A stretch of 32,000 nucleotides of DNA, taken from positions 690,001 to 722,000 of the forward strand of contig NC_006055.1 of assembly GCF_000008305.1 (NCBI RefSeq), read 5' to 3'. Source of the DNA: Mesoplasma florum L1. Its GTDB lineage: Bacteria > Bacillota_I > Bacilli_A > Mycoplasmatales > Mycoplasmataceae. Both the position numbers and the translations under genes were made by a program. Below the pieces are notes generated by a model that saw only the letters and a program-made list of their open reading frames with translations, made no database searches and was not told the origin of the DNA. Positions 1,816 through 22,168 of the stretch are shown here, one piece after another. Positions within the stretch are counted from its first letter, which is position 1. Each line of letters opens with the position of its first letter.

Positions 1816-1891
1816 TGGCAGGGGCAGCAAGACTCGAACTCGCGACACTCGGTTTTGAAGACCGATGTTCTGCCAACTGAACTATGCCCCT
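1816..1891 (-). tRNA. trnW: tRNA-Trp, anticodon UCA (reads UGA and UGG)
   Basis: The reverse complement is AGGGGCATAGTTCAGTTGGCAGAACATCGGTCTTCAAAACCGAGTGTCGCGAGTTCGAGTCTTGCTGCCCCTGCCA. It has acceptor stem AGGGGCA/TGCCCCT, anticodon loop CT-TCA-AA and an encoded CCA. It is a close paralog of the downstream CCA gene, with about 10 differences in 76 nt. Confidence 0.95.
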
Positions 1892-5151: not shown

Positions 5152-5260
5152 ATTTAATATCTCCTTATTATTTCTCTCTACACATATAATTATATTCTCT
5201 CTATTATAAAAAATTAACTCTTTTGATAGAGAAAATATTTTTTGTTTTTTAAGTTAAATA

Positions 5261-5288
5261 TAAAAAAGCATCATTTAACATGACGCTT
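5261..5288 (-). terminator. Intrinsic terminator after rpoC
   Basis: The minus-strand RNA reads AGCGUCAU-GUUAA-AUGAUGCU-UUUUUU (8-bp stem with one G.U pair, then a U-tract). It starts about 12 nt after the rpoC stop. Confidence 0.6.
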
Positions 5289-5299
5289 TTAAATAAATA

Positions 5300-9064
<3,765 letters not shown>

Positions 9065-9073
9065 TTTGACCTC

Positions 9074-12000
9074 CTATTCCTCTTCAAATGAAAGGTTTAT
9101 TTCACTTTCATCTACTTCTTCAAAACTATCTAGGTCTTCAATTTCAACAAGTGATATTGAGTCTTCAAAAGTTAATTTATCAATTGATGCATGTTTCATA
9201 CTTTCATCGTTAATTAAATCGTTGTCATCATCGTATGCATTAATTTGTGATTTATTACCTTTGTTATCTAATAAGTAAATATCAAATCCTAATCCCATAA
9301 TTTCTTTTGAAAGAACGTTAAATGATTCAGGTGTTCCTGGTGTAGGAATGTTTTTTGATCTTACGATAGCTTCATAAGTTTTTGTACGACCTTTTAAGTC
9401 ATCTGATTTAATAGTTAAGATTTCTCTTAGAGTATGAGCTGCCCCATAAGCTTCTAACGCTCAAACTTCCATTTCTCCAAAACGTTGTCCCCCGTTTTGT
9501 GCTTTTCCTCCAAGAGGTTGTTGAGTAATTAATGAGTATGGTCCAACACTTCTTGCGTGAAGTTTGTCATCAACCATGTGTGAAAGTTTCAACATGTACA
9601 TAACCCCAACAGAAATTGGTTTGTCAATTGCTTCCCCTGTTTGACCATCAATTAATTTAACTTTTCCATAGTTTTCCATTCCAGCTTCAGCCATGATTTC
9701 ATCTAAATCATTACTGTTAACTCCTTCGAAAACTGGAGTTGCAATTTTAACTCCTAATTTTTTAGCAGCCATTCCTAAATGGATTTCTAAGATTTGTCCA
9801 ATATTCATACGTGATGGAATCCCTTGTGGGTTCAATAGAATATCTACTGGTGTACCATCTTCTAAGTGAGGCATGTCTTCTACAGGTAACACTTTTGAGA
9901 TAATCCCTTTGTTACCGTGACGTCCTGACATTTTATCCCCTTCTTGGATTTTACGTTTTTGAACAATATAAACTTTAATTACTTCTAATACATCTGCTGG
10001 TAAATCAATACCATCTGGGTTCGCTGCTGATTTAGCTTTGAAACGTTTAACAGATTGAACAATACCTTCTCCACCATTTGGAACTTTTAATGAGTTATCT
10101 TTAACTGATCTTGATTTTTCTCCAAAGATAGCATGTAATAATTTATCTTCTGGTGATAATTGAGTTTGTCCTTTTGGAGTTACTTTACCAACTAAAATAT
10201 CTCCTGTTTTAACTTCAGTACCAATAGCTACAATACCTTCGTTATCTAAGTATTTTTTAGCATTGTCACTAATGTTTGGGATTTCTGAAGTAATTTCTTC
10301 AGCTCCTTGTTTTGTATTACGTACTTCTAATACATATTCATCAATATGAACTGAAGTAAATTTGTCTTCCATGATTACTCTTTCAGACATAACAATAGCA
10401 TCCTCAAAGTTGTAACCATTATATGTAGTAAAGGCAACAACTACGTTTTGTCCTAAAGCTAATTCTCCATTATCAACAGATGGACCATCGGCGATGATTT
10501 GACCTGCTTCTATTGAATCTCCAACTTTAACAATTGGTTTTTGTACAATTGAACTTCCGTTATTTGAACGTTCAAAGTTTGCTAATGTATAAGTTTTAAT
10601 TCCTGCTTTTGATTCAACAGTAATTTGTTTTGCATCTACGTATTTTACAATACCGTTTTCTGTAGCAACAATACATACTCCTGAATCTCTAGCTGCTTCA
10701 AATTCAATTCCTGTTCCAACGAATGGTGATTCTGGAACAATTGTAGGAACTGCTTGACGTTGCATGTTAGCACCCATAAGTGCACGGTTGGCATCATCGT
10801 TTTCTAAGAATGGAATTGCTGAAGTAGCAACAGAAACGATTTGTTTTGGTGAAACGTCGATAAATTGAACTTCACTTACTTTAGCAATGTAATCATCACC
10901 TTTGTAATGTGAAACAACAGTTTCATCTAAAATTTTTCCATTTTCATCTTTAGTAACGTTTGATTGAGAAATAATGTATTCTTTTTCTTCATCAGCTGAT
11001 AAATATTCATGTTCATTTTGAATTACACCATCAATAACTTTTAAGTAAGGTGTTCTAATAAATCCTAATTCATCAACAATAGCATAAGTTGATAAGTTGT
11101 TAATTAATCCAATGTTTGGTCCCTCTGGAGTTTCAATAGGACAGATTCTTCCATAGTGAGAAGGGTGAACGTCACGCACTTCTAAACTGGCACGGTCTCT
11201 TGATAATCCCCCAGGTCCTAAAGCAGTTAATCTACGTTTATTTGTTAATTCTGCTAATGGGTTTATTTGATCCATAAATTGTGATAATTGTGATAAGTTG
11301 AAGAACTCTCCAATTACAGCAGTTAATGGTTTTGCATTAATAATTGTTGAAACTTTAACTTTGTATAAATCACTTGTTGAAAGTTTTTCTTTAACGTTTT
11401 TATCAATACGTGTTAATCCCATTCTGAATTGATTTTGTAATAACTCTCCAACTGTTCTAACACGACGGTTAGCTAAGTTATCAATATCATCATATTCACC
11501 AATGTTGTACTCTAATCCTAATAAGTAAGAAACAGTAGCTACAATATCAACAACTGTAATGTGTTCTTCTTTTGAGTTAGGAGTAATTCCAACAATTGTA
11601 AATGTTTCATCTTTTGAGTTATTGTCTTGGTAAACTTTAACTTTTTGGATTTGACGTGAACCAGGGATATCTTCTCTGTATTCAATTGAAGAAACCATTA
11701 CACCATCTTGTGATAATGCATCAGAAACTTCTTTAATATTTGCTTTTGAAATTTCAGTATTTTTAGCAACTAAAATTTTTCCGCTAGCATCAACAATATC
11801 TTCAGCTAATATTCTTCCCATTAAACGATTTTTAACAGCTAATTTTTGTTGTAATTTGAATCTACCTGCTTTAGTTAAATCGTATTTTCTACGGTCAAAT
11901 AATAATCCGTTAATGTATTTTGATGCTCCATCAGAAGTAGCAGTTTCACCTTGTCTAATTTTTTTATAAATTTCTTGAACGTGTTGTGCTCAGTCTGCAT

Positions 12001-12928
12001 ATGTATCACCAGTATCGTTGTCATTTTTTAATGTTTCAACAATAACTTTATCTTTATCATAAATATTTAAGATTGTATCTCTATCTAATCCTAAGATTTT
12101 CAAGAATGATGTTGCAGTTGTTTTTCTTGATTTGTCGATTTTAACAAATAGTGAATTTGTTGTTTCAGCAGTTTTTTTAGTATCAGTTTCAAACTCTAAT
12201 CAAGTACCACGACTTGGGATAATATCACCATTGTATAGGCTTTCCCCTGTCTTGTTATTGATTTCTGTTTTGAAATATGAACCAGGTGATCTAACTAATT
12301 GTGAAACAATAACTTTTTGTGAACCATTAATAACAAATGTTCCGGCATCAGTCATTAGAGGGAAATCTCCAAAGAATACTTGTCCTCATTTTCTTACACT
12401 AACTTCTGCTACAATAATATCTTCTTTTTCTTCTAAAATTGTAATTTGGAATAAGTCATTTTTTTCTGTTCCTTTTAACTTAACATCAAAGAAATAAATG
12501 TTATCAGTGTTTTTAACAAGTGAAACGTTTTTTGAATCTGTTTTTTCAGCAATTCAATTTGATAATACTTTCTTAACATCTTTTTCTACAATTTCTTCAA
12601 ATTCTTTTGAAATGTCTTCAGTTTTTGTAAACATTAATTGCAAGTCTACATAAATTGGAGCATCATAGATTTTTGATTGCTCTTTTGCTTTTGATGGTGA
12701 AATTTTTGCTTCTTTAATTTCTCATCCTTCTAAGAAAAGAGATGCACTAGCATCATTTGAGCTCATTGCAAAAAATTCATTTAAAACTTCATCAATTCCT
12801 TTTGTTTTGAATCATTCGAAAGTTTTAGTTTGAATTTCGATTAAGTTTGGTAACTCAAGATTACCAGAAACTTTTCTATAATCACGTCTTTCAACGCCAC
12901 GGTTTACTTTTTTAATTTTATATGCCAT
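9074..12928 (-). CDS. rpoB: DNA-directed RNA polymerase subunit beta
   Basis: Track ORFs 9074..9298 and 9461..11821 share a frame with the ATG at 12928 (N-terminus [20 protein letters not shown], verified). Motifs seen: [25 protein letters not shown]. The true stop is TAG at 9074-9076, only 9 nt before the rpoC ATG. Length is 3855 nt, divisible by 3. Confidence 0.95.
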
Positions 12929-12942
12929 GTTGTTTCCTTTCA

Positions 12943-14100
12943 TTATTCTAATATATATTTATATTTATTTAATTGCTTATCAGCAACTGTAAAGTTTGCG
13001 TCATTTTTTGTAACTTTGACTATGTTAGCACTTTTAAGGTTTTCTAAAGCATCCTTAATTTCTTGTTTTTTAACTGCTGCGTAACCTGCAATTTTTAATT
13101 TGTCAGTAATTCTTTTAACAGAAACTTCTTTAGTTCTTTCTGTCAAAATACTAATTAACACAATAAGTTCATAATCACTTGGAAAAAATTTTGATCTAAC
13201 TTCTAAATCTTGCGCTATTCATTCTTTTACCAAAGAAGCTATAAAACCTCTTTTTACAGAATCTTGCAAATGTTTTTTAACAACTTTTAAAAGGTTATTT
13301 ACATTTAAATTGTTAACGAAAGATTCATTAATTTTTTCAATAATTTCATCTCAGTGATTTAGCAAATCAAAAATTCAAATTTGAAATATTTCTTTCTCTT
13401 TAGATTGACCAATGAATCAAAGACTCATAAGCAAAGCTAATGTTGAATTGAATTTTTGATAAGGTTGAATAATTAAAATCTGTAAGAAAATAATTATTGC
13501 TTTTGTAAAACCATCAAAAGAATTTTCAGGTGTATCATTTATAAATTTGAATAAGCCTTTTAGTTCATCATCTATTGATTCAAAGTTAATTAAAACATCA
13601 GTCAAAAGTTTTTTATTGTCTGTTCTATAATAATTAGCTTTTCTGTCTAAGTTAAACTCTGTATTCCTGAATAATATATGAATTAACAACTCATAGTTAT
13701 CTTCATTAATTTCAAAGTCAGCTTTTTTGACCAATCTAACAGCTTCAATTAAATTCATTGCTAGTTTTTCTTTTTTAGTTTTTGGTTTAGCTCCGTTTTC
13801 AATTCTTCTAATCATGTTGTGAATAGAAATAGTTGAAGATCCTTCTGCCAAGTTTTCCAAAAACATCAATGAAGATATATTGCTAGTTAGAATAAAATCA
13901 TTTAATTCCTTATTCTTAGTAAATGTATATGCTTGAAAGTAGTTTGTTAAGTACTTATCTCCTTCAATTTCTTGAACTGGTTCAAAATTCATTTTTTGCA
14001 TTATTGAAAGTGGAAAGTCTAAAGTCAAATAACTTTGTTCTTCAACAATTTGATTCATTGAATCAATAATCTTTTTATTTAAAAAATAGTTTAGACTCAT
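12943..14100 (-). CDS. Fic-fold protein with degenerate active-site motif and C-terminal winged-helix-like domain (385 aa)
   Basis: Track ORFs 13417..14100 and 12943..13161 are in one frame. The 255-nt gap contains only TGA codons (13417, 13375, 13351, 13219), translated codon by codon. GGAGGA precedes the ATG at 14100. The layout matches Fic_N + Fic + wHTH proteins, but the HxFx(D/E)GNGRxxR position reads QPYQKFNSTLAL (13432-13467). The N-terminal SxxxEG inhibitory-helix position reads SSTISI (13822-13839). Confidence 0.6.
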
Positions 14101-14182
14101 ATGACTTCCTCCAATATTTCTTTTGCAAAAAAAATGAGGATAGCAGAAGCTCTTAACTAACTAAACTATACTCGATTATTAT

Positions 14183-14211
14183 ATTATATATAAAACCCCC
14201 TAAAAAATCAA
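14183..14211 (-). promoter_or_regulatory. Near-consensus sigma-70-type promoter upstream of the Fic-like gene (and probably rpoBC)
   Basis: On the minus strand there is TTGATT (14211-14206), a 17-nt spacer, then TATAAT (14188-14183), about 80 nt upstream of the ATG at 14100. Confidence 0.6.
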
Positions 14212-14249
14212 TTAGACTATTTGATTTAAAGCGGAATTAAACTATTTAT

Positions 14250-14278
14250 TTGCATATTTTTGTTATTAAAGTTATACA
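14250..14278 (+). promoter_or_regulatory. Candidate promoter of the serine-hydrolase gene
   Basis: TTGCAT (14250-14255), a 17-nt spacer, then TATACA (14273-14278), 37 nt upstream of the ATG at 14315. Confidence 0.4.
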
Positions 14279-14314
14279 ATTATTTACAAAATAAAGAAAT
14301 TAAAGGGATCTAAT

Positions 14315-15424
14315 ATGAAAAATATTGAACAAAAAATAAACGAATTTATTTCTAATAATTTTTATCCAGGAGCTGTTATTAAAATTGATATTAATGGTAA
14401 AGATTTATACTACTCTTCATTTGGATATAGTGATTTAGAAAATAAGAAACCAATGAAGAAAAATCAGATTTTTCCAATTTATTCAATGACAAAACCAATA
14501 GTTGTTGTTGCTTGTCTTTTATTAATCCAAGACGGGTTGCTTTCATTGGATACAAAAGTTTCAGATTTTTATTCTAACTTCAATCAAAATATGAAAATAA
14601 AAAACTTATTAAATATGACATCTGGTATAACTTATAGTTGGAGCGCAAAAAACAACATTGAAAAACAAATTGAAATTGAAGAAGAAATTGAAACTAATAA
14701 TTATAATCTTCATGAAATAATTGAAATGATTAGCAAAATACCCACAGAGATAGAACCTGGAGCAGATTGAATTTATGGAATGGGTATTGATGTATTAGGT
14801 GGAATTATAGAAAAAGTTTCTGGAATTAAACTTTCAACGTTTTTGAAAGAAAAAATTTTTTATCCGCTAAAAATGAACGATACTGACTTTAAGATAAAAG
14901 ATTTAAATAGAAAACCTGTGAAATATAATTTGGACTCTTCAAATGGTTATAAGCTTATTAGAAATGAAAATTATCATTGAATGATGCCAGAAGATTTAAC
15001 TAAAATTCCAAATTGCTGTCTTGGAGGCTCTGGAGTTTTTACCACAGCTAGTGATTACAATAAATTTCTTAATTTTTTATTATGTGGAAAAATTGAAAAT
15101 AAAGAATATTTAGATACTAAATATTTAAATGAAATGACAAGCAATCAAATTACTAATTTAAAAAATATTAAAATTTTTGATTTAAACGAAGACTACCAAT
15201 ATGGTTATGGTGTCAGGGTTAGAACTAAGAACAATGTTTTTCCATTAACTGAAGTTGGTGAATTTGGTTGAGGTGGTGTTTTAGGAACAACTTCGCTTGC
15301 TGATCCAAAAAATAAAGTTGTTATGTCATTTATGGTTTCTGTTTATCCAGGTAATAATATGCTGGTTGAAAAGGAACTTTTTGACGCTTTATATAAAGAT
15401 TTAAAAGATAAAAAATTAATATAA
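14315..15424 (+). CDS. Beta-lactamase-fold serine hydrolase (class C beta-lactamase / family VIII esterase-like)
   Basis: Track ORFs 14315..14770, 14780..14980 and 14981..15271, plus a tail, share one frame and join across TGA codons. Stop is TAA 15422-15424 (369 aa). The SxxK nucleophile motif is YSMTKP (Ser codon 14483-14485), and a C-terminal FGWGGVLGT box matches the usual HxG/KTG region. Confidence 0.8.
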
Positions 15425-15455
15425 AAAAATCTTGCTCTAAGCAAGATTTTATTTT
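15423..15455. terminator. Bidirectional intrinsic terminator between the hydrolase gene (+) and rplL (-)
   Basis: Arms atcttgc (15429-15435) and gcaagat (15441-15447) form the stem, which is extendable by the flanking A-run and T-run. Either strand gives a hairpin plus U-tract. Confidence 0.7.
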
Positions 15456-16622: not shown

Positions 16623-19178
16623 CTAAACTTCAACATCATCATTTCGTTTTATTATATCCATATCAGTTTCATTTGGAGGGAATACACCATCATTTTGACG
16701 TTTTTTGTATCATTCGAATTGACCTTCAAATGGGTGCAATCTTCTAACTTCTTGAGCAAGTTCTATGTAAATATCATCACTCATACTATTTCAGTTATAT
16801 TTAAAGAATTTTCTATCTGATTTAAACTCTGCTAATTCTTTAACTAAACCTAACGAGATCATTCCATCTATTACATGTTTTCCAAGGAAACTACCAAATC
16901 TTATTTCTCTATTTCTGTTTCTTGCTCCAATAAGACCAAGGGTAACAAAGAAAACTGCAAATATTAATAATATTCCTGCTTGTTGCATAATGTATAGTGT
17001 ATCTGTTGAATTGAATCCATTTTCTCCAACACCATATATTATTGATCCTAGTCCATGTAATACATATGTGAACTCAGCAACAAAACTAATTTTGTGGAAG
17101 AATTCAAATTGCATAAATGAAGGGAATGTTCCTCATCCTGATGAAATATTTATAACTAAATAAATGATAACTAAAACTTTTGAAATTGTTTCATCCTTAA
17201 ACAAGAATCATAATCCTTGTATAGTAAGCACAAATATAAGATCTACAAATAATAGCCATAGTCATACAGATAACATAGCAGCTGAACCTATTGCTATTCA
17301 ACCGGTTAGACTTAAAGCTATAGTAAGTGCTGTTGCTTGAACTATTCCAGTAACAAACATAAGTAATGTTTTTGATACATATCATTTTCCAGTTTTAAGT
17401 TTTTTAGTTCTTCTTGCTCTATCATATATAAATGTTTGCATAAATGTACCAACAAACAATCCGATGATTATAAAGAACTCACCAATTCCAATTCCATAAA
17501 TTCCATTTTTTAAACCAGCTATTTCAATATTAACTATTTCAAATCTATCAAAAGTTTTATGTTTAATAGTTTCAATAACTTTTTTGCTTAATGTATTTAA
17601 AAATGAAATTTGATTACCAAATCCATTTGCTACAGCCAGTTTATCCATGTTTTTATTAAATTCAAATACAGTTGTTACATTTCTATTTAAAGGGTTTAAG
17701 GTTGAGTTAAACACTTCTTGAGATTTAATTAATCTTAGATTAAATCCAGTTTTTTCATTTAAAATTGAACTTATTTTTGGTAAGTAAGTTTTAAAGTTAA
17801 ATTTTAAGTTTTGGATAGGGCTATTATTGATTCCCGCTACAAAAGCTGTTATGGCTTTTTGAACTTTTGAATCTAAACCCAATTTATCTATATGATCTAG
17901 ATTAATTCACATTTTTTGTGAATCTTCGAATGGATCTATTCCATGCATCACATCATATAAGTATTTGTTTAAAATATGTGAGTTGTCATTTAATAATAAA
18001 ATATATCCCATTAGTTTTGAATTATAAAGATCTATTTTTAATATTTTAGCTATTGTTTTTAATTGGTCACTACCTAACAATGATGCGATTGTATTTGTAA
18101 ATATACCATTTGTTTTTTGCGCTGCATCTGCTTTTGAAGTTATTTCTTCTCTTATATCACCAAAAATAGTATTTTCAGATTTAACTTTTTGAACATCTTC
18201 TAGTGATGAAGTTGACTCATTTACTGAGTCACTTATAACATACTGTTTATTTGCTTCAATAATAACGTCAGAATTATTTATAGTTCCAAAACTTTGAGAA
18301 ACGCTTACTTTTTCATCATTTAAAGGTGTGTATGTTACTTGTTTATAGAAGTTCTTATAAACAATATTTGAAATAAATGACGGTATGTTTTCACCTAAAA
18401 AATCTTCAATTGCTGATACTATAAGCGCTGATTTCATCTCCATCATACTATTTAGGTAATATCCAAAAATAAAGTTTCTTTCAAATGTTGTTCAAAGATT
18501 AATATTTGATTTAGGTAATTTAGGTGCCTCATTTTTTTTATTAAAAGTAGTTCCTACTTGTTGAATTAAATATTCTCCAAAGCCTTTTTCAATTTTAGCT
18601 TGAACATAATATTTTTTACCTTTTCATTGTTTTTCAATTTCTTTTTCAGATGATATATATCTGATGTTTGTGAATGCCATATCTTCTTTTAATTCTGGAG
18701 AAGAAAAAACATAATCTTCATCCTTAATATTTTTATCTGTTTTTTCATTTAAAGCTGATTTAATTATGTCTCATACGTTAAATTGAAAAATGTGATTTGC
18801 AACTTCTTCTTTTGAAGCTGCTATTGTTCCAGTGTTTGTATATAAAATTCCTTTTTCAATGTCATAAGCTGAAGAAATGGCTTGTTCTTTACTTATATAA
18901 CCATCCAGTGAATTGTATTTATAATCTGTTAAAACACCGATTTTAAAATCGAGTTTTTCCATATCATTATTTTTATATACTCAGACTGTATTGTCTTCGT
19001 TTAAAATTGCAACTGGTGCTTTTCCTAAATTTATTGTTGGGTTTCAAAAAGCAATTAAACATGTTACTCCATACAATATGGGTATTAATGCAATACCTAT
19101 AAATTTAGAAATCCTTTTTACCGAAGACAGAACTCGAGATGTAAATTCATCTCGAAAACCTTTGATAATGTCTATCAT
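16623..19178 (-). CDS. YhgE/Pip domain-containing membrane protein (851 aa)
   Basis: Track ORFs 18771..18962, 17907..18446, 17382..17882 and 16791..17114 are all in one frame, and I translated every gap (TGA only). Start is the ATG at 19178 after AAAGGAG; stop is TAG 16623-16625. The N-terminus MIDIIKGFRDEFTSRVLSSVKRISKFIGIALIPILYGVTCLIAFWNPTINLGKAPVAILNED matches the YhgE/Pip N-terminal signature. A soluble domain of about 560 aa follows, then a C-terminal multi-TM bundle. Confidence 0.75.
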
Positions 19179-19234
19179 ATGTCTCCTTTTAAATAAATGA
19201 ACTTTAGTAGTTCATATATATAAGATAACACTTA

Positions 19235-19260
19235 ATAAAAAAAATAACTTAAAAGTTATT
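19235..19260 (-). terminator. Candidate intrinsic terminator after the permease gene
   Basis: Arms aataac (19243-19248) and gttatt (19255-19260) form an A/T-rich stem overlapping the TAA stop. On the minus strand it is followed by a U-run (plus-strand A-run 19235-19244). The stem is weak. Confidence 0.4.
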
Positions 19261-20644
19261 TGATTTTTATATTATTAAATTTAAAAATTCCAAACAAGTA
19301 AACTAAGAATGCGATAAGAACCATTAAAATAGGTTTTCACAAGATTGAGAATGTACTTGCACCTGTTTGTTGATGGGGCATTATAACCATTAAATAAATT
19401 GAACCTATAAATGTAAGAGCACATGTAACTAAACTTAAAATCATTAGTGTTCAGAAAGTTTTATTTCCATATATTTTTTTATATTCTGGATCTTTCAGTC
19501 TTAATTTTATTATCGATGAGTTTAATAAAATTTTTAAAACACTTGTAGCTAACGCAAATGAAGAAATGATTTCAGAAATAGAACTAAATAAAATATAAAA
19601 TACTGCAACACAACATAACAAGATAATTGCCATATAAGGTTGATTTGTTTTTTTATGCACTTTTCCAAAAACAGAATGAACATCTCCAGTTTCAGATAAT
19701 TTATGTATTAGTCTTGATTGAAAAAATAATAAAGAGTTTACAGAACCAATAAATAAAAATATTGCAAAAATATTAAAAGTTAAAACAGCCCATCTATGCT
19801 GAGCAAAAATTGATGACGTTGTTCCTCCTGGATTTATTCAATTTCCATTTGAGTCAGGTGTTGCTAATGATAAAAGAGCAATACCATAACAAACGTATAT
19901 AACTAAAACTATTAATACAGCACTAATGATGACTCATGGAATTGTTTTTTTAGGATTTTCAATTTCTTCTGTAATGTATGTTGGGAATTCATGACCAGAA
20001 TATGCAAACCCTGTATATGTTATTGCTGGAATCAACATAGCAGATGAAATATATGCATGCCCTAAATTCTTATTCATTTCTGAATTTGAAAGTAAACCAT
20101 CTTTTGAACCATACATTATTGCTAAAATAAAAACTAATATGATTGGTAATGTTTTAACAAATAAAAAGAATAACTGTGTGTATTTACTACTATTTTTAAT
20201 CATTATTTGAATCCCAGCCAAAAATATCAAGATAAATATTGCTAAGCTTTTTTGTAATGTTTCAACTGCTATTTCTTCAGGATTTAATTCTAAGATTTGA
20301 GTTATCATAGAACTCATTGCAGAACAACAACTAGCCAAAGATGTTGCTGAAACAAATAAAATTAAAACTCAACCAAATCAAAATGCTAATATTCTTCAAT
20401 TACATTTTCTAATTCAACTATAACCACTACCACTTTCTCCATAACCTATTGAAGGTTCAATAACAATAAATGCATCAGGTAGAACTATTAAAGCTCCAAA
20501 AACTCACGCCAATATCATTAAAAGAGGATTTGCTTCAGATAAAGCAAATACCATATTAAAAGAAATTATAATGCTTGAACCTACTATTGCAGCTAATGTA
20601 GATGCTAATACTGTTCAAAATCCATATTTTTTATTTAGTTTCAT
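19256..20644 (-). CDS. APC-superfamily amino acid/polyamine permease (462 aa)
   Basis: Track ORFs 19934..20338 and 19451..19660 are in frame with the ATG at 20644 and the TAA at 19256-19258. All gaps were translated and contain only TGA. The protein is hydrophobic throughout: MKLNKKYGFWTVLASTLAAIVGSSIIISFNMVFALSE...SIGYGESGSGYSWIRK..., typical of amino acid permeases. Confidence 0.75.
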
Positions 20645-21653
20645 TTACTTCTCACTTTCTAGCAAAATTTATTGTTTTAAGAATGTAATCATCATTATAA
20701 GTCTTAATTGTATTTACATGCTCTGAGCCTTCGGGTGTTCAAATTTTGCTTATTTTTACTTTTTCATACTTTATTTTTTTCTCATACATTATCTGACTCA
20801 TCTCATATGGAATAAAGGTATCACCTTTTGAGTGAACAAAAAATATCGGATTACTTTTTGCTTTCTTCATATTTAATAATAAGTTATATTTTCTTTGTTT
20901 AGTTTTTGTTTCTTTGCTAAATTTATGTGTAAAAAGAAATCCTATCTTTCATCATGGAACATGGTATAAATTATTTTCAATGTAATATCTATACTGCAAT
21001 TTTATATTACTAAAACCACAATCCGCAACAACCCAATTTATTTTTGATCTTAACTTATTTTTTTGAACAAATAAAATACTTGTTGACGCACCCATACTAT
21101 TACCAATTAATCCAATTGAGTCTGCTTGTTCTTCATTTTTTAGGTGCTCAACAATAGTTTCCAACATTGAAATAGAAGAATATCCTATATCAGTTTTTTC
21201 ACCATAACTTAAACCGTGAGCAAATGCATCAAAAGTTAATATATTGTATCCTTGCTTTCAAAAATGATGAACTAATCTTAAAGCTAAAAATTTATTTTCA
21301 GTTCAACCATGTAATCCAACTACTCATTTTTTAGAGTTTGCATTTTTTGCAACTAAACAGCTTATTTTTCCATTACTATTAAATAAATCAAATTCTTCAA
21401 TCGATTTTTCGTTGAAAGTATCAGTTAAATAATTTAAATTTTTATTTTTTAAATCATCATAATAAATATCAAGTGAATTTACCTTAATTCCTTCTTTAGT
21501 AAAACCATCTCTATAGTAGTTGTAACAAAAGTTTTTATAATCTAAAAAATGAGAACTAGAATTTTTTTTAATTGATTTCATTTGTAACAATGTTATTAAA
21601 ACTGTTTTTAATGAATATTTATATTTATTTATTTTTTCCAAAGTAAACCTCAT
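20631..21653 (-). CDS. Alpha/beta-fold hydrolase (340 aa)
   Basis: Track ORFs 21324..21653 and 20952..21167 are in one frame, with gaps translated. It reads through TGA at 20652-20654 to TAA 20631-20633, overlapping the permease start by 14 nt. Motifs: HGWTENKF (oxyanion region), the nucleophile elbow GNSMGAS, and later VADCGF and GSEHV as candidate Asp and His. Confidence 0.75.
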
Positions 21654-21681
21654 TTTTCATATTTAAATTAATTATACATAT

Positions 21682-21725
21682 AAAAAAAATAATTCCCAAA
21701 AAATTTTTTTATTTTGGAAATTATT
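21682..21725 (-). terminator. Intrinsic terminator after the GNAT gene
   Basis: 14-nt arms at 21688-21701 and 21712-21725 pair with one position that is G.U on the minus-strand RNA. A U-run follows (plus-strand A-run 21682-21689). Confidence 0.6.
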
Positions 21726-21727
21726 AA

Positions 21728-22168
21728 TTATTTTTTAATGATCATATCAATGTGATCTATACCATCATCATCATATACTTCAGAGCATTCTACAAAACCA
21801 AAACTTTTATAGAAATTTAATAAATAGTATTGAGCGCTAATTTTTATGTCTTTGTTTGGTCATTCTTTATTAATTCAATCAATAGCATTTTGCAAAAGTG
21901 TTTTACCCATTTTAAGTCCTCTGAATTTAAATGGAGTTAGTACTCTACCAAAAGAAGCTGTTCCATCTAATTTTTCATATATTCTTAAGTAAGCCACAAG
22001 TTCATTATCATCATTTCTAATAATTAAATGTGTTGCTGTCAAATCTTGTTCGTCAATTTCGCATGCTACTCATTTTTGTTCGACAACAAAAACTTCACTT
22101 CTACTTTTAAATATTTCTCAAGCTTCATAACTAGTTAGTTCACTAAGCTTCTTAAATTCTATTTTCAT
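21728..22168 (-). CDS. GNAT family N-acetyltransferase (ElaA-like, 146 aa)
   Basis: This gene is absent from the ORF track because of four in-frame TGA codons; I translated it codon by codon. It reads MKIEFKKLSELTSYEAWEIFKSRSEVFVVEQKWVACEIDEQD...GRVLTPFKFRGLKMGKTLLQNAIDW..., including the acetyl-CoA motif R-x-x-x-RG-x-G. AAGGAG lies upstream of the ATG at 22168; stop is TAA 21728-21730. Confidence 0.75.

What the first reader, a model, noticed from the sequence alone, without database searches (positions are those of the whole stretch)
12929..14211. Catalytically degenerate Fic-fold/wHTH protein appears to be the first gene of the rpoB-rpoC operon
The 385-aa product follows the Fic_N-Fic-winged-helix layout. 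Examples are LAEGSSTISIHNM at the inhibitory-helix position, ANYYRTDNKKL at the G-x-R-x-x-x-V position, and TKAIIIFLQILIIQPYQKFNSTLALLMSLWFIG at the active-site helix.

The Fic motif HxFx(D/E)GNGRxxR is replaced by QPYQKFNSTLAL, so the catalytic His and the GNGR anion hole are absent. The inhibitory SxxxEG reads SSTISI, so the Glu is also absent. It therefore looks like a pseudo-enzyme retaining only the scaffold and a DNA- or protein-binding wHTH.

Its stop (12943-12945) is 14 nt from the rpoB ATG, with the rpoB ribosome-binding site in between and no terminator. It has its own near-consensus promoter (14183-14211). It sits where rplJL and its read-through attenuator normally precede rpoBC. 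A dead Fic protein co-expressed with the RNA polymerase core subunits is not a described arrangement to my knowledge. It could be an RNAP-associated factor or an operon regulator.
Basis: partly seen in the sequence, partly recalled or inferred. Interest (0 to 1): 0.7.

Follow-up and report, generated by a model that had tools for sequence, protein, structure and literature searches.

The report
Dead Fic–wHTH gene leading rpoBC operon
The gene just upstream of the RNA polymerase genes in Mesoplasma florum really does encode an enzyme-dead Fic/winged-helix protein transcribed together with rpoB and rpoC, but this arrangement is already documented in published M. florum and minimal-cell (JCVI-syn3.0) data; what appears new is a highly conserved RNA leader in front of it.

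Summary
Window 12943-14100 (- strand, genetic code 4) encodes a 385-aa protein, gene mfl599 of Mesoplasma florum L1. A profile of its family retrieves genuine Fic proteins (E down to 9e-8 in 1.8 billion sequences). Profile-profile probability is 99.4% over 291 columns. An AlphaFold model (pLDDT 90) matches only Fic+wHTH structures.

The catalytic motif HPFx(D/E)GNGRxxR is replaced by QPYQKFNSTLAL and is degenerate in every family member.

Co-transcription with rpoBC is already published for M. florum (5'-RACE TSS at window 14176; transcription unit TU_335). In JCVI-syn, orientation-dependent transposon insertions in the counterpart gene _0805 show that rpoB needs read-through. A 2026 paper calls MMSYN1_0805 an inactive Fic/HTH protein. 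So the finding is correct but essentially known, and the function is still unknown.

New here:
- The gene-rpoB junction is conserved in all 10 rpoB-linked loci examined, spanning Mesoplasma and relatives and the Mycoplasma putrefaciens group.
- dN/dS is 0.12.
- A 38-nt, nearly invariant, tRNA-D-arm-like leader (14136-14173) starts the transcript in all of them.

Most likely role: a non-enzymatic, non-essential regulator of its own rpoBC operon.

The parts
12943..14100 (-). mfl599 CDS (385 aa, code 4): catalytically degenerate class II Fic + C-terminal wHTH protein
   Evidence: identity with mfl599/peg.603
13852..13911 (-). helix at residues 64-83 equivalent to the class II inhibitory helix; L78-M-F-L-E82-N83 aligns with (S/T)xxxE(G/N)
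   Evidence: hhalign; alignment to FICD TVAIEGN; family column is E/D in 10 of 12 members
13405..13725 (-). Fic core (residues ~126-232), including the most conserved family block F.INEDNFEL.IHILFRN...YYR (R159 invariant in the family and in true Fic proteins)
13432..13467 (-). degenerate Fic motif QPYQKFNSTLAL in place of HPFx(D/E)GNGRxxR
12946..13185 (-). C-terminal winged helix-turn-helix domain (residues 306-385), basic (pI 9.5), poorly conserved
   Evidence: AF2 secondary structure; hhalign covers it; weak winged-helix hits; charge
14183..14211 (-). promoter: -35 TTGATT (14211-14206), -10 TATAAT (14188-14183); TSS at 14176
   Evidence: 5'-RACE p-gTSS 704175-704176 in Matteau 2020 Dataset EV1
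14136..14173 (-). conserved 38-nt leader element at +4..+41 of the transcript: stem GAGUAUAG/CUAUCCUC closing the near-invariant UUUAGUUAGUUAAGAGCUUCUG; tRNA D-arm-like
   Evidence: no Rfam match
14101..14135 (-). rest of the 5' UTR: T8 run (14134-14127) and SD GGAGG (14112-14108), which can pair with the CCUC tract of the leader's 3' arm
   Evidence: control shows the occlusion is not an outlier
12929..12942 (-). 14-nt Fido-rpoB spacer with the rpoB SD (AAAGGA); no terminator
   Evidence: junction conserved at 8-29 nt (0 nt in M. grammopterae, where the ORF finder took an upstream in-frame ATG for rpoB) in L001-L007 and L009
9074..12928 (-). rpoB (mfl598)
5300..9064 (-). rpoC (mfl597)
5252..5307 (-). 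terminator that closes TU_335 (published prediction)
   Evidence: Matteau 2020 Datasets EV2/EV3
15426..15450 (.). bidirectional terminator that insulates rplJL (and the + strand mfl600) from the Fido-rpoBC unit

Best explanation
Shown:
- The gene is mfl599 of Mesoplasma florum L1.
- It belongs to a narrow family restricted to the Mesoplasma/Entomoplasma/Williamsoniiplasma and Mycoplasma putrefaciens-yeatsii lineage.
- The family descends from class II Fic-wHTH enzymes (the SoFic/CccR/CbFic2 type) and has lost the catalytic His, the Mg-binding acid, the glycine anion hole and both arginines.
- It is the promoter-proximal gene of a dedicated transcription unit: promoter, conserved leader, Fido gene, rpoB, rpoC.
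- This unit is insulated from rplJL by a terminator.

Inferred from literature and position:
- It is the counterpart of MMSYN1_0805.

Inferred mechanism:
- The protein no longer AMPylates anything.
- It acts as a low-copy, non-essential regulator, by analogy with CccR, whose HTH domain represses its own promoter.
- Its basic winged-helix domain would bind nucleic acid at or near its own promoter or leader.
- The dead Fic domain would serve as a dimerisation or ligand/partner-sensing scaffold.
- Together these would tune transcription or translation of the operon that makes RNA polymerase beta and beta'.

Confidence:
- About 0.9 for the identity, fold, dead-enzyme and operon parts.
- About 0.35 for the autoregulator mechanism.
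For: Fold and homology:
- Exhaustive profile search, with Pfam verification of the hits.
- hhalign 99.4% probability, E 5e-21, over residues 70-379 including the wHTH.
- AF2 model with pLDDT 89.9 and pTM 0.90.
- Foldseek top hits are 7cb8, SoFic 3zcn/3eqx, 4rgl, CbFic2 8cil and 7xux.

Dead active site:
- The motif is degenerate in every member.

Selection on the protein:
- dN/dS is 0.12 between M. florum and M. grammopterae.
- Members are full length at 23-31% identity in more than 15 species.

Expression:
- Two validated peptides were detected, corresponding to about 42 molecules per cell, against RpoB 167 and RpoC 183.

Operon:
- TSS at 14176 and TU_335 in Matteau 2020.
- No TSS is listed inside the gene.
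- No terminator-like site lies before rpoB.
- The Fido-rpoB junction is intact in all 10 rpoB-linked loci (the window plus L001-L007 and L009), while the rplL-Fido spacer accepts insertions.

Regulator analogy:
- CccR represses its own promoter through its HTH domain.
- The CbFic2 wHTH binds DNA.
- The C-terminal domain has pI about 9-9.8 in 11 of 13 family members.
- JCVI labels _0805 'Transcription factor/Regulation'.
- The copy number is in the range of DNA-binding regulators such as DnaA (82 per cell).
Against: - There is no direct evidence of DNA or RNA binding.
- The putative recognition helix (KKQEIKDALENL) is rather acidic. It is poorly conserved in the family (region conservation 0.41).
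- The only conserved non-coding sequence near the promoter, the leader, is almost invariant. It therefore does not co-vary with the protein as a specific operator would.
- A transposon insertion at about codon 122 is viable in M. florum. Hutchison 2019 argues that _0805 may be fully dispensable once polarity is avoided. Any regulatory role is therefore not required in rich medium.
- The retained E82 and R159 leave open a residual ligand-binding or non-canonical activity.
- I could not align mfl599 with MMSYN1_0805 directly because the sequence was not obtainable. Orthology rests on Baby 2018 ('present in JCVI-syn3.0'), position, size (385 vs 391 aa), architecture and the His substitution.
Confidence: 0.4

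Rival explanations
1. Locus retained for cis reasons. The ORF is kept mainly because its promoter, leader and transcription/translation are needed to express rpoBC. The protein itself would be a functionless relic of a Fic toxin or immunity gene that landed upstream of rpoB.
For: - Transposon data in JCVI-syn show the apparent quasi-essentiality of _0805 is a polar effect on rpoB, and the authors say it may be completely dispensable.
- The 2026 mSphere paper offers the same resolution.
- M. florum tolerates insertions at about codons 122 and 357.
- The protein evolves fast: 23-31% identity where RpoC and L7/L12 are about 66-79% identical.
- The leader, not the protein, is the most conserved part of the region.
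Against: - dN/dS is 0.12.
- The ORF keeps its full length of about 367-397 aa, with no frameshifts, in every species examined.
- Blocks such as F.INEDNFEL.IHILFRN, R159, G197, P213, N218 and W228 are invariant or nearly so across the family.
- The protein is detectable by mass spectrometry.
- A neutral relic would not survive in genomes under strong reductive pressure, including the core genome of 13 M. florum strains.
Confidence: 0.2
2. RNA polymerase-associated factor. The dead Fic domain keeps its target-docking surface and binds an RNA polymerase subunit, or sigma or another transcription factor, as a non-catalytic accessory or assembly factor. Co-expression from the same mRNA would keep the amounts matched.
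For: - Linkage to rpoB is invariant across the family.
- Co-transcription with rpoBC is published.
- Pseudo-enzymes often keep substrate-binding functions (general knowledge; review PMC10211241 listed, not read).
- The Fic flap region and R159 are retained.
Against: - The copy number is about 42 per cell against about 170-180 for beta and beta', and mRNA coverage is about 6-fold lower than rpoB. This is sub-stoichiometric.
- The gene is not essential.
- No interaction data exist.
- Known targets of the closest active relatives are EF-Tu (SoFic), FtsZ (CccR) and histone H3 (CbFic2), not RNA polymerase.
Confidence: 0.15
3. Still an enzyme or nucleotide sensor. The pocket, with a retained inhibitory-helix Glu (E82), R159 and N218, still binds a nucleotide or carries out a non-canonical reaction with migrated catalytic residues.
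For: - E/D is kept at the inhibitory-Glu position in 10 of 12 members, followed by G/N in 8 of 12.
- R159, Y158, N135, P213 and N218 are shared with true Fic enzymes.
- Some pseudo-enzymes have migrated catalytic residues (abstract of PMC10211241).
Against: - All six residues that define catalysis and phosphate binding (H, D/E, G, G, R, R) are replaced, by Q/S, K/Q/E, F/N/Y, S/V/I, T/I/L and L/F.
- The replacements are not conserved among family members, which argues against a new fixed active site.
Confidence: 0.1

Closest known systems
MMSYN1_0805 / JCVISYN _0805 of Mycoplasma mycoides JCVI-syn (mSphere 2026, PMC13621843; Hutchison 2019, PMC6755753)
   Same: - It lies directly upstream of rpoB (_0804) on the same strand.
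- It is 391 aa, against 385 aa here.
- It has a Fic domain plus a C-terminal HTH.
- Its catalytic His is replaced (Ser there; Gln in the close Mesoplasma florum-like species and Ser in 8 of the 10 more distant members here).
- Its function is unknown.
- Transcription through it is needed for rpoB.
- Baby 2018 lists mfl599 as having a JCVI-syn3.0 ortholog.
   Different: - It comes from a different genus.
- I could not align the two sequences directly.
- JCVI scored _0805 as quasi-essential because of polarity, while mfl599 is scored non-essential in M. florum.
- The published work does not mention the rpoBC context together with the dead Fic fold, the clade-wide synteny or the conserved leader.
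CccR of Yersinia pseudotuberculosis (Nat Commun 2022, PMC9755527)
   Same: - It is a class II Fic protein with an N-terminal inhibitory helix and a C-terminal HTH DNA-binding domain.
- It binds its own promoter and represses itself, which is the model for the mechanism proposed here.
   Different: - CccR is an active AMPylase (His192) that targets FtsZ, and it is secreted by a type VI system.
- mfl599 lacks the catalytic motif.
- Mollicutes have no T6SS.
- The CccR operon has nothing to do with rpoBC.
SoFic (3EQX/3ZCN), CbFic2 (8CIL), 7XUX and 7CB8: solved class II Fic-wHTH proteins
   Same: - They are the best structural matches over the full length (Foldseek E 1.7e-7 to 1e-4, TM about 0.45-0.53).
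- They share the same domain order.
   Different: - Sequence identity is only 12-13%.
- They carry intact HPFxxGNGR motifs and documented AMPylation targets (EF-Tu for SoFic, histone H3 for CbFic2).
Classical rplKAJL-rpoBC cluster with the rplL-rpoB attenuator (E. coli; own knowledge)
   Same: - The gene order rplJ-rplL ... rpoB-rpoC is kept.
- An L10 leader is present upstream of rplJ (Rfam RF00557).
   Different: - Here rplL ends in a real terminator.
- rpoBC is driven by a dedicated promoter, through a conserved leader and an extra protein-coding gene, rather than by read-through from the ribosomal protein promoter.

Membership tests
Fic/Fido superfamily (Pfam PF02661) | Sequence similarity to the Fic profile above Pfam's gathering threshold | tested here: not met
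   13.5 bits against a cut-off of 24, E=0.14. Other family members score 14.8-15.9 bits or give no hit.
Fic/Fido superfamily (Pfam PF02661) | Statistically significant remote homology to verified Fic proteins | tested here: met
   The family profile hits 30 proteins at E 9e-8 to 1e-3 in 1.84 billion sequences. Of 10 tested, 9 pass the Pfam Fic cut-off (36.7-69 bits) and one falls just below it (21.7 bits). hhalign gives 99.4% probability, E 5e-21.
Fic/Fido superfamily (Pfam PF02661) | All-alpha Fic fold | tested here: met
   The AF2 model has pLDDT 89.9. All 50 top Foldseek PDB hits are Fic proteins. Caveat: the alignment used for the model contained true Fic sequences.
Catalytically competent Fic AMPylases | Active-site motif HxFx(D/E)GNGRxxR | tested here: not met
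   The motif is QPYQKFNSTLAL here and (S/Q/E/Y)P(Y/F/H)xxxNxxxxx across the family.
Catalytically competent Fic AMPylases | AMP transfer to a target protein | not testable with these tools
   Needs biochemistry.
Class II Fic (intramolecular N-terminal inhibitory helix) | (S/T)xxxE(G/N) motif preceding the Fic core | tested here: inconclusive
   The aligned segment is L78-M-F-L-E82-N83. The E(G/N) is kept and the S/T is replaced by Leu. The column is E/D in 10 of 12 members.
Fic-wHTH architecture (SoFic/CccR/CbFic2 type) | C-terminal winged helix-turn-helix after a long connecting helix | tested here: met
   The model shows H309-319, H328-334, H345-357, strands 361-363 and 369-372, preceded by a long helix 268-297. 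hhalign aligns this region with the C-terminal domains of Fic-wHTH proteins. Full-length Foldseek matches support it. Weak MCM4_WHD, Cullin WH-B and ArsR hits also point the same way.
CccR-like autoregulatory transcription factor | Sequence-specific binding to its own promoter through the HTH | not testable with these tools
   Only indirect evidence: the C-terminal domain is basic (pI 9.5). No conserved palindromic operator was found upstream of the TSS.
MMSYN1_0805 orthogroup | Immediately upstream of rpoB on the same strand, about 385-395 aa, Fic+HTH, catalytic His substituted | tested here: met
   for the mfl599 family; for _0805; the orthology flag in Baby 2018.
MMSYN1_0805 orthogroup | Direct sequence similarity to MMSYN1_0805 | not tested
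   The sequence was not retrievable. M. mycoides was not among the named hits. The closest named relatives are M. putrefaciens, M. yeatsii and M. cottewii.
rpoBC transcription unit | A single mapped TSS upstream of the gene, no terminator before rpoB, and a terminator after rpoC | tested here: met
   Scan. Published 5'-RACE and TU_335. No internal TSS is listed. Caveat: RNA-seq coverage steps up about 6-fold at rpoB.
Known cis-regulatory RNA families (Rfam 15) | Covariance-model match of the 5' leader | tested here: not met
   No hit at gathering thresholds or at E<=10 in 12850-14330.

The most novel reading that the evidence does not exclude
The Fido-rpoBC unit would be a previously unrecognised control module for RNA polymerase synthesis in the Mesoplasma/mycoides lineage, including the JCVI minimal cell. 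The nearly invariant, tRNA-D-arm-like 38-nt leader at the 5' end of the mRNA would be a new cis-regulatory RNA. It would be bound by a conserved cellular partner (for example RNA polymerase itself, a tRNA-binding enzyme or RNase P) or by the dead Fic-wHTH protein. It would switch between a closed stem and a Shine-Dalgarno-sequestering hairpin to set expression of the operon.
Probability: 0.25. Interest if true: 0.7.

Novelty: already known. Interest (0 to 1): 0.45.

Why it matters
RNA polymerase beta and beta' are among the most tightly controlled proteins in a cell, yet nothing is known about how near-minimal Mollicutes set their level. The gene that leads their rpoBC operon is one of the unexplained genes retained in JCVI-syn3.0. 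Showing that it is a conserved, selected, catalytically dead Fic-wHTH protein narrows the hypotheses for a 'gene of unknown function' in the minimal cell. Showing that a conserved leader RNA precedes it gives concrete, cheap experiments: a non-polar deletion, leader mutagenesis and binding assays.

Tried and rejected
I used the returned orthologs instead.
- The narrow family profile A1 found nothing in the PDB. The broader family-only profile A2 reached FICD only at E about 1.2. The PDB link therefore rests on profile-profile and fold comparison.
- The first AF2 model, from 9 sequences, was poor (pLDDT 60) and was not used.
None fits the extended consensus, so it says nothing about the element's wider distribution.
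- I considered the leader as a boxA-like antitermination site (GCTCTTAAC). That match is on the antisense strand, so I rejected it.
- I considered the leader as the operator of the wHTH. This is unlikely, because the leader is invariant while the recognition helix is not.
- Shine-Dalgarno sequestration as a regulatory switch is suggestive across species. In M. florum, however, the predicted occlusion (0.34) is not an outlier among 22 genes of the window.
- An internal rpoB promoter: the only sense-strand -10-like hexamer in or next to the CDS is TAGAAT at 12950-12945. No TSS is published there.
- I found no way to obtain the MMSYN1_0805 sequence.
Full report
**What is there**

The window is AT-rich (28% GC), and its ORFs are interrupted by TGA under the standard bacterial code, so the organism uses genetic code 4. 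Translated with table 4, the - strand ORF 14100->12943 gives a 385-aa protein. Its stop codon (12945-12943) lies 14 nt before the rpoB start (ATG 12928-12926, MAYKIKK...), and an AAAGGA ribosome-binding site sits in between.

Gene order on the - strand is rplK-rplA ... rplJ-rplL | terminator | (+ strand beta-lactamase-like gene) | this gene - rpoB - rpoC - terminator - ldh. Coordinates and sequences in the supplements of Matteau et al. 2020 show that the window is Mesoplasma florum L1, genome positions 690001-722000. The gene is mfl599 (peg.603, YP_053841.1), annotated 'hypothetical protein'.

**Is it a Fic-fold protein?**

Pfam alone is not decisive. NCBIfam and the PDB sequence search gave nothing.

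Homologs are few: Mesoplasma species at 66-97% identity and one at 32%. UniRef already names several 'Fido domain-containing protein'. A profile of these was scored against 1.84 billion representative proteins. It found about ten diverged full-length family clusters (E 1e-204 to 1e-37), followed by 30 proteins at E 9e-8 to 1e-3. I tested ten of those with Pfam. Nine pass the Fic cut-off (36.7-69 bits) and one falls just below it (21.7 bits). Their consensus motif is HPYxDGNGR.

Profile-profile comparison of the family (13 sequences) with 15 of these Fic proteins gives 99.4% probability, E 5e-21, over 291 columns (residues 70-379). The aligned region includes the C-terminal domain.

An AlphaFold model from the shallow family alignment was poor (pLDDT 60). 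A 41-sequence alignment gave pLDDT 89.9 and pTM 0.90. Foldseek against the PDB returns only Fic proteins in the top 50. The list is led by full-length Fic+wHTH structures: 7cb8, SoFic 3zcn/3eqx, 4rgl, Coxiella Fic2 8cil and 7xux (E 1.7e-7 to 1e-4). The fold assignment is therefore sound. The caveat is that the model's alignment contained true Fic sequences.

**Is it catalytically dead?**

The segment aligned with HPFx(D/E)GNGRxxR is Q212-P-Y-Q-K-F-N-S-T-L-A-L223. Only the Pro and the Asn are kept. In the wider family the His position is S, Q, E or Y, and the other catalytic positions are variable. The degeneracy is present in every member, so it is ancient. It is neither strain decay nor a sequencing error.

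hhalign and the alignment to FICD's T-V-A-I-E234-G-N both place the motif at L78-M-F-L-E82-N83, not at SSTISI. The Glu, and an Asn or Gly after it, are retained: the column is E/D in 10 of 12 members. The Ser/Thr is lost.

The most conserved block of the family is F.INEDNFEL.IHILFRN...YYR (residues 129-159). R159 is invariant in the family and in true Fic proteins.

**Operon status**

The scan finds a TTGATT-17-TATAAT site at 14211-14183 and no terminator-like site between the gene and rpoB. Published data settle the point for M. florum:
- Dataset EV1 of Matteau 2020 lists a 5'-RACE TSS at 704175-704176 (window 14176), with the -10 box at 704182-704188.
- Dataset EV3 lists TU_335 (695252-704176, 8924 nt) as peg.603, peg.602 (rpoB) and peg.601 (rpoC).
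- rplJL form a separate unit, TU_337, which ends at the bidirectional terminator.
- No TSS is listed inside the gene.

In the JCVI-syn strains, Hutchison et al. 2019 found that viable Tn5 insertions in gene _0805 are strongly orientation-biased (2 forward, 18 reverse). This gene is 391 aa and lies directly upstream of _0804, RNA polymerase beta. They classed it as 'downstream read-through needed'. That is direct genetic evidence that rpoB depends on transcription coming through the upstream gene.

**Comparative genomics done here**

I examined loci from the following sources, in addition to the window:
- M. grammopterae
- 'Acholeplasma' multilocale
- M. photuris
- Williamsoniiplasma lucivorax
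- M. lactucae
- a Mesoplasma sp.
- M. putrefaciens
- an uncultured relative

In all of them the Fido gene sits next to rpoB on the same strand: the ORF-to-ORF gap is 8-29 nt, and 0 nt in M. grammopterae, where the ORF finder took an upstream in-frame ATG for rpoB. The family also occurs in Entomoplasma, M. yeatsii and M. cottewii.

The rplL-Fido spacer is variable. It holds the non-core beta-lactamase-like gene in M. florum L1, which is absent from M. grammopterae. It holds an MmeI-type restriction-modification gene in L009 and a 70-aa ORF in M. putrefaciens. The Fido-rpoB junction is never interrupted.

The protein evolves quickly: 23-31% identity where RpoC and L7/L12 are about 66-79% identical. 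It is nonetheless under purifying selection, with dN/dS = 0.12 between M. florum and M. grammopterae.

**Expression and essentiality (literature)**

mfl599 was detected by proteomics with 2 validated peptides. The estimate is about 42 molecules per cell, against 167 for RpoB and 183 for RpoC. Its RNA-seq level is 465 FPKM against 2874 for rpoB.

Baby et al. 2018 score the gene as core in all 13 strains, non-essential, and with an ortholog in JCVI-syn3.0. Insertions are recorded at 703733 (about codon 122) and 703030 (about codon 357).

**Prior knowledge**

[quoted passage not shown] It reports similarity to VbhT and to a Fic-HTH structure it calls CccR, with the catalytic His replaced by Ser and the function unknown. 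It does not mention rpoB.

- dead Fic plus HTH;
- transcription through the gene needed for rpoB;
- a single transcription unit in M. florum.

I rate the finding as already known, with the reservation that orthology of mfl599 and MMSYN1_0805 is inferred rather than aligned here.

**Mechanism**

The closest characterised relatives give a model:
- CccR is a class II Fic-HTH protein that represses its own promoter through the HTH domain.
- The wHTH of CbFic2 binds DNA.

In the mfl599 family the C-terminal domain is basic (pI about 9-9.8 in 11 of 13 members), while the N-terminal part is acidic in most members. The copy number is that of a regulator, not of a polymerase subunit.

I therefore favour a non-enzymatic regulator acting on its own operon, at about 0.35. 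The rivals are a cis-only relic (0.2), an RNA polymerase-binding factor (0.15) and a residual enzyme or nucleotide sensor (0.1).

Two points weigh against the favoured model. The recognition helix is poorly conserved and rather acidic. The gene is dispensable in rich medium.

**Unexpected observation: a conserved leader**

The region upstream of the Fido gene is not alignable between species except for one block. This block begins 3 nt after the M. florum TSS and is about 90% identical in all of them: GAGUAUAG-UUUAGUUAGUUAAGAGCUUCUG-CUAUCCUC (window 14173-14136).
- It occurs exactly once in the window (0 expected by chance) and once in each orthologous locus.
- It matches no Rfam family, even at E<=10.
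- RNAalifold predicts a closing stem plus a small inner hairpin.
- On the named structure 87% of cells pair, against 33-52% when partners are slid. Three pairs show compensatory changes, a count reached by 26 of 500 shuffles. Structural support is therefore modest, because the element hardly varies.
- Its core resembles a tRNA D-arm and the 5' half of the genome's tRNA-Trp(CCA). The alignment score is 25 against a null of 13.7 +/- 2.7, reached by 3 of 2000 shuffles.
- The pyrimidine tract of the 3' arm can alternatively pair with the Fido Shine-Dalgarno sequence in most species. In M. florum, however, the predicted occlusion is not unusual among genes of the window.

The partner of this element is unknown. 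Because it is invariant while the Fido wHTH is not, a conserved cellular component is a more likely partner than the Fido protein.

**Unresolved**
- RNA-seq coverage steps up about 6-fold at rpoB without a mapped TSS.
- A mid-gene transposon insertion is viable in M. florum although rpoBC is essential. This implies read-out from the transposon or a weak internal promoter. The only candidate -10 hexamer is TAGAAT at 12950-12945.

Noticed in passing
window 14136-14173 (- strand); also L001 5924-5961, L002 5919-5955, L003 5916-5952, L004 5923-5960, L005 5907-5944, L006 5907-5944, L007 4922-4958, L009 4922-4959 (approximate): A 38-nt leader at +4..+41 of the Fido-rpoBC mRNA is nearly invariant across genera whose Fido proteins are only 23-31% identical. 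It occurs once per locus, has no Rfam match, resembles a tRNA D-arm, and has a closing stem with a few compensatory changes. It may be a new cis-regulatory RNA for the rpoBC unit.
   Followed up: partly
window 12929-14100 versus 9074-12928: Published RNA-seq shows 465 FPKM over mfl599 but 2874 over rpoB, with no TSS mapped in between. A Tn insertion at about codon 122 (window 13733) is viable although rpoBC is essential. The only sense-strand -10-like hexamer is TAGAAT at 12950-12945, overlapping the stop codon.
   Followed up: partly
window 14315-15424 (+ strand): A beta-lactamase/PBP-like gene (mfl600) is inserted between rplL and the Fido gene. It has its own TSS, is non-core and non-essential, and was not detected by proteomics. 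It is absent at this position in the 97%-identical M. grammopterae locus L001. The same spacer holds an MmeI-type R-M gene in L009 (2488-4884) and a 70-aa ORF in M. putrefaciens L007 (4066-4278). The spacer looks like an insertion hot spot next to an inviolable Fido-rpoB junction.
   Followed up: partly
window 16623-22168: In M. florum (and, for at least three of these genes, M. grammopterae) rplK-rplA and rplJ-rplL are separated by about 5.5 kb of unrelated genes: an 851-aa YhgE-like membrane protein, a permease, a 340-aa protein and a GNAT-like protein. In L002, L003, L005 and L006 rplA is followed directly by rplJ; L004 and L007 have one extra ORF in between.
   Followed up: no
window 1816-1891 (- strand): ARAGORN labels this tRNA 'SeC (tca)'. 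In a code-4 Mollicute it is the tRNA-Trp(UCA) that reads UGA. It sits next to tRNA-Trp(CCA) at 1699-1774.
   Followed up: no
window 12941-12943: An ATG overlaps the Fido stop codon (TAATG) and is in frame with rpoB, giving MKGNNMAYK.... It is conserved only in M. grammopterae. Orthologs start at MxYKIKK, so the annotated start at 12928 is the real one.
   Followed up: yes
PDB entry 7CB8: The 2026 mSphere paper cites 7CB8 as CccR of Yersinia pseudotuberculosis. The PDB table used by fold search describes 7cb8 as a FIC-domain protein from Mycobacterium marinum in complex with CDP. The CccR paper itself does not contain the code 7CB8 in its main text.
   Followed up: partly
window 14127-14134 (- strand): In M. 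florum and M. grammopterae the leader stem is followed directly by a run of 7-8 T, giving a terminator-like or attenuator-like appearance. The run is not conserved in the other species, and the site is absent from the published terminator predictions.
   Followed up: partly
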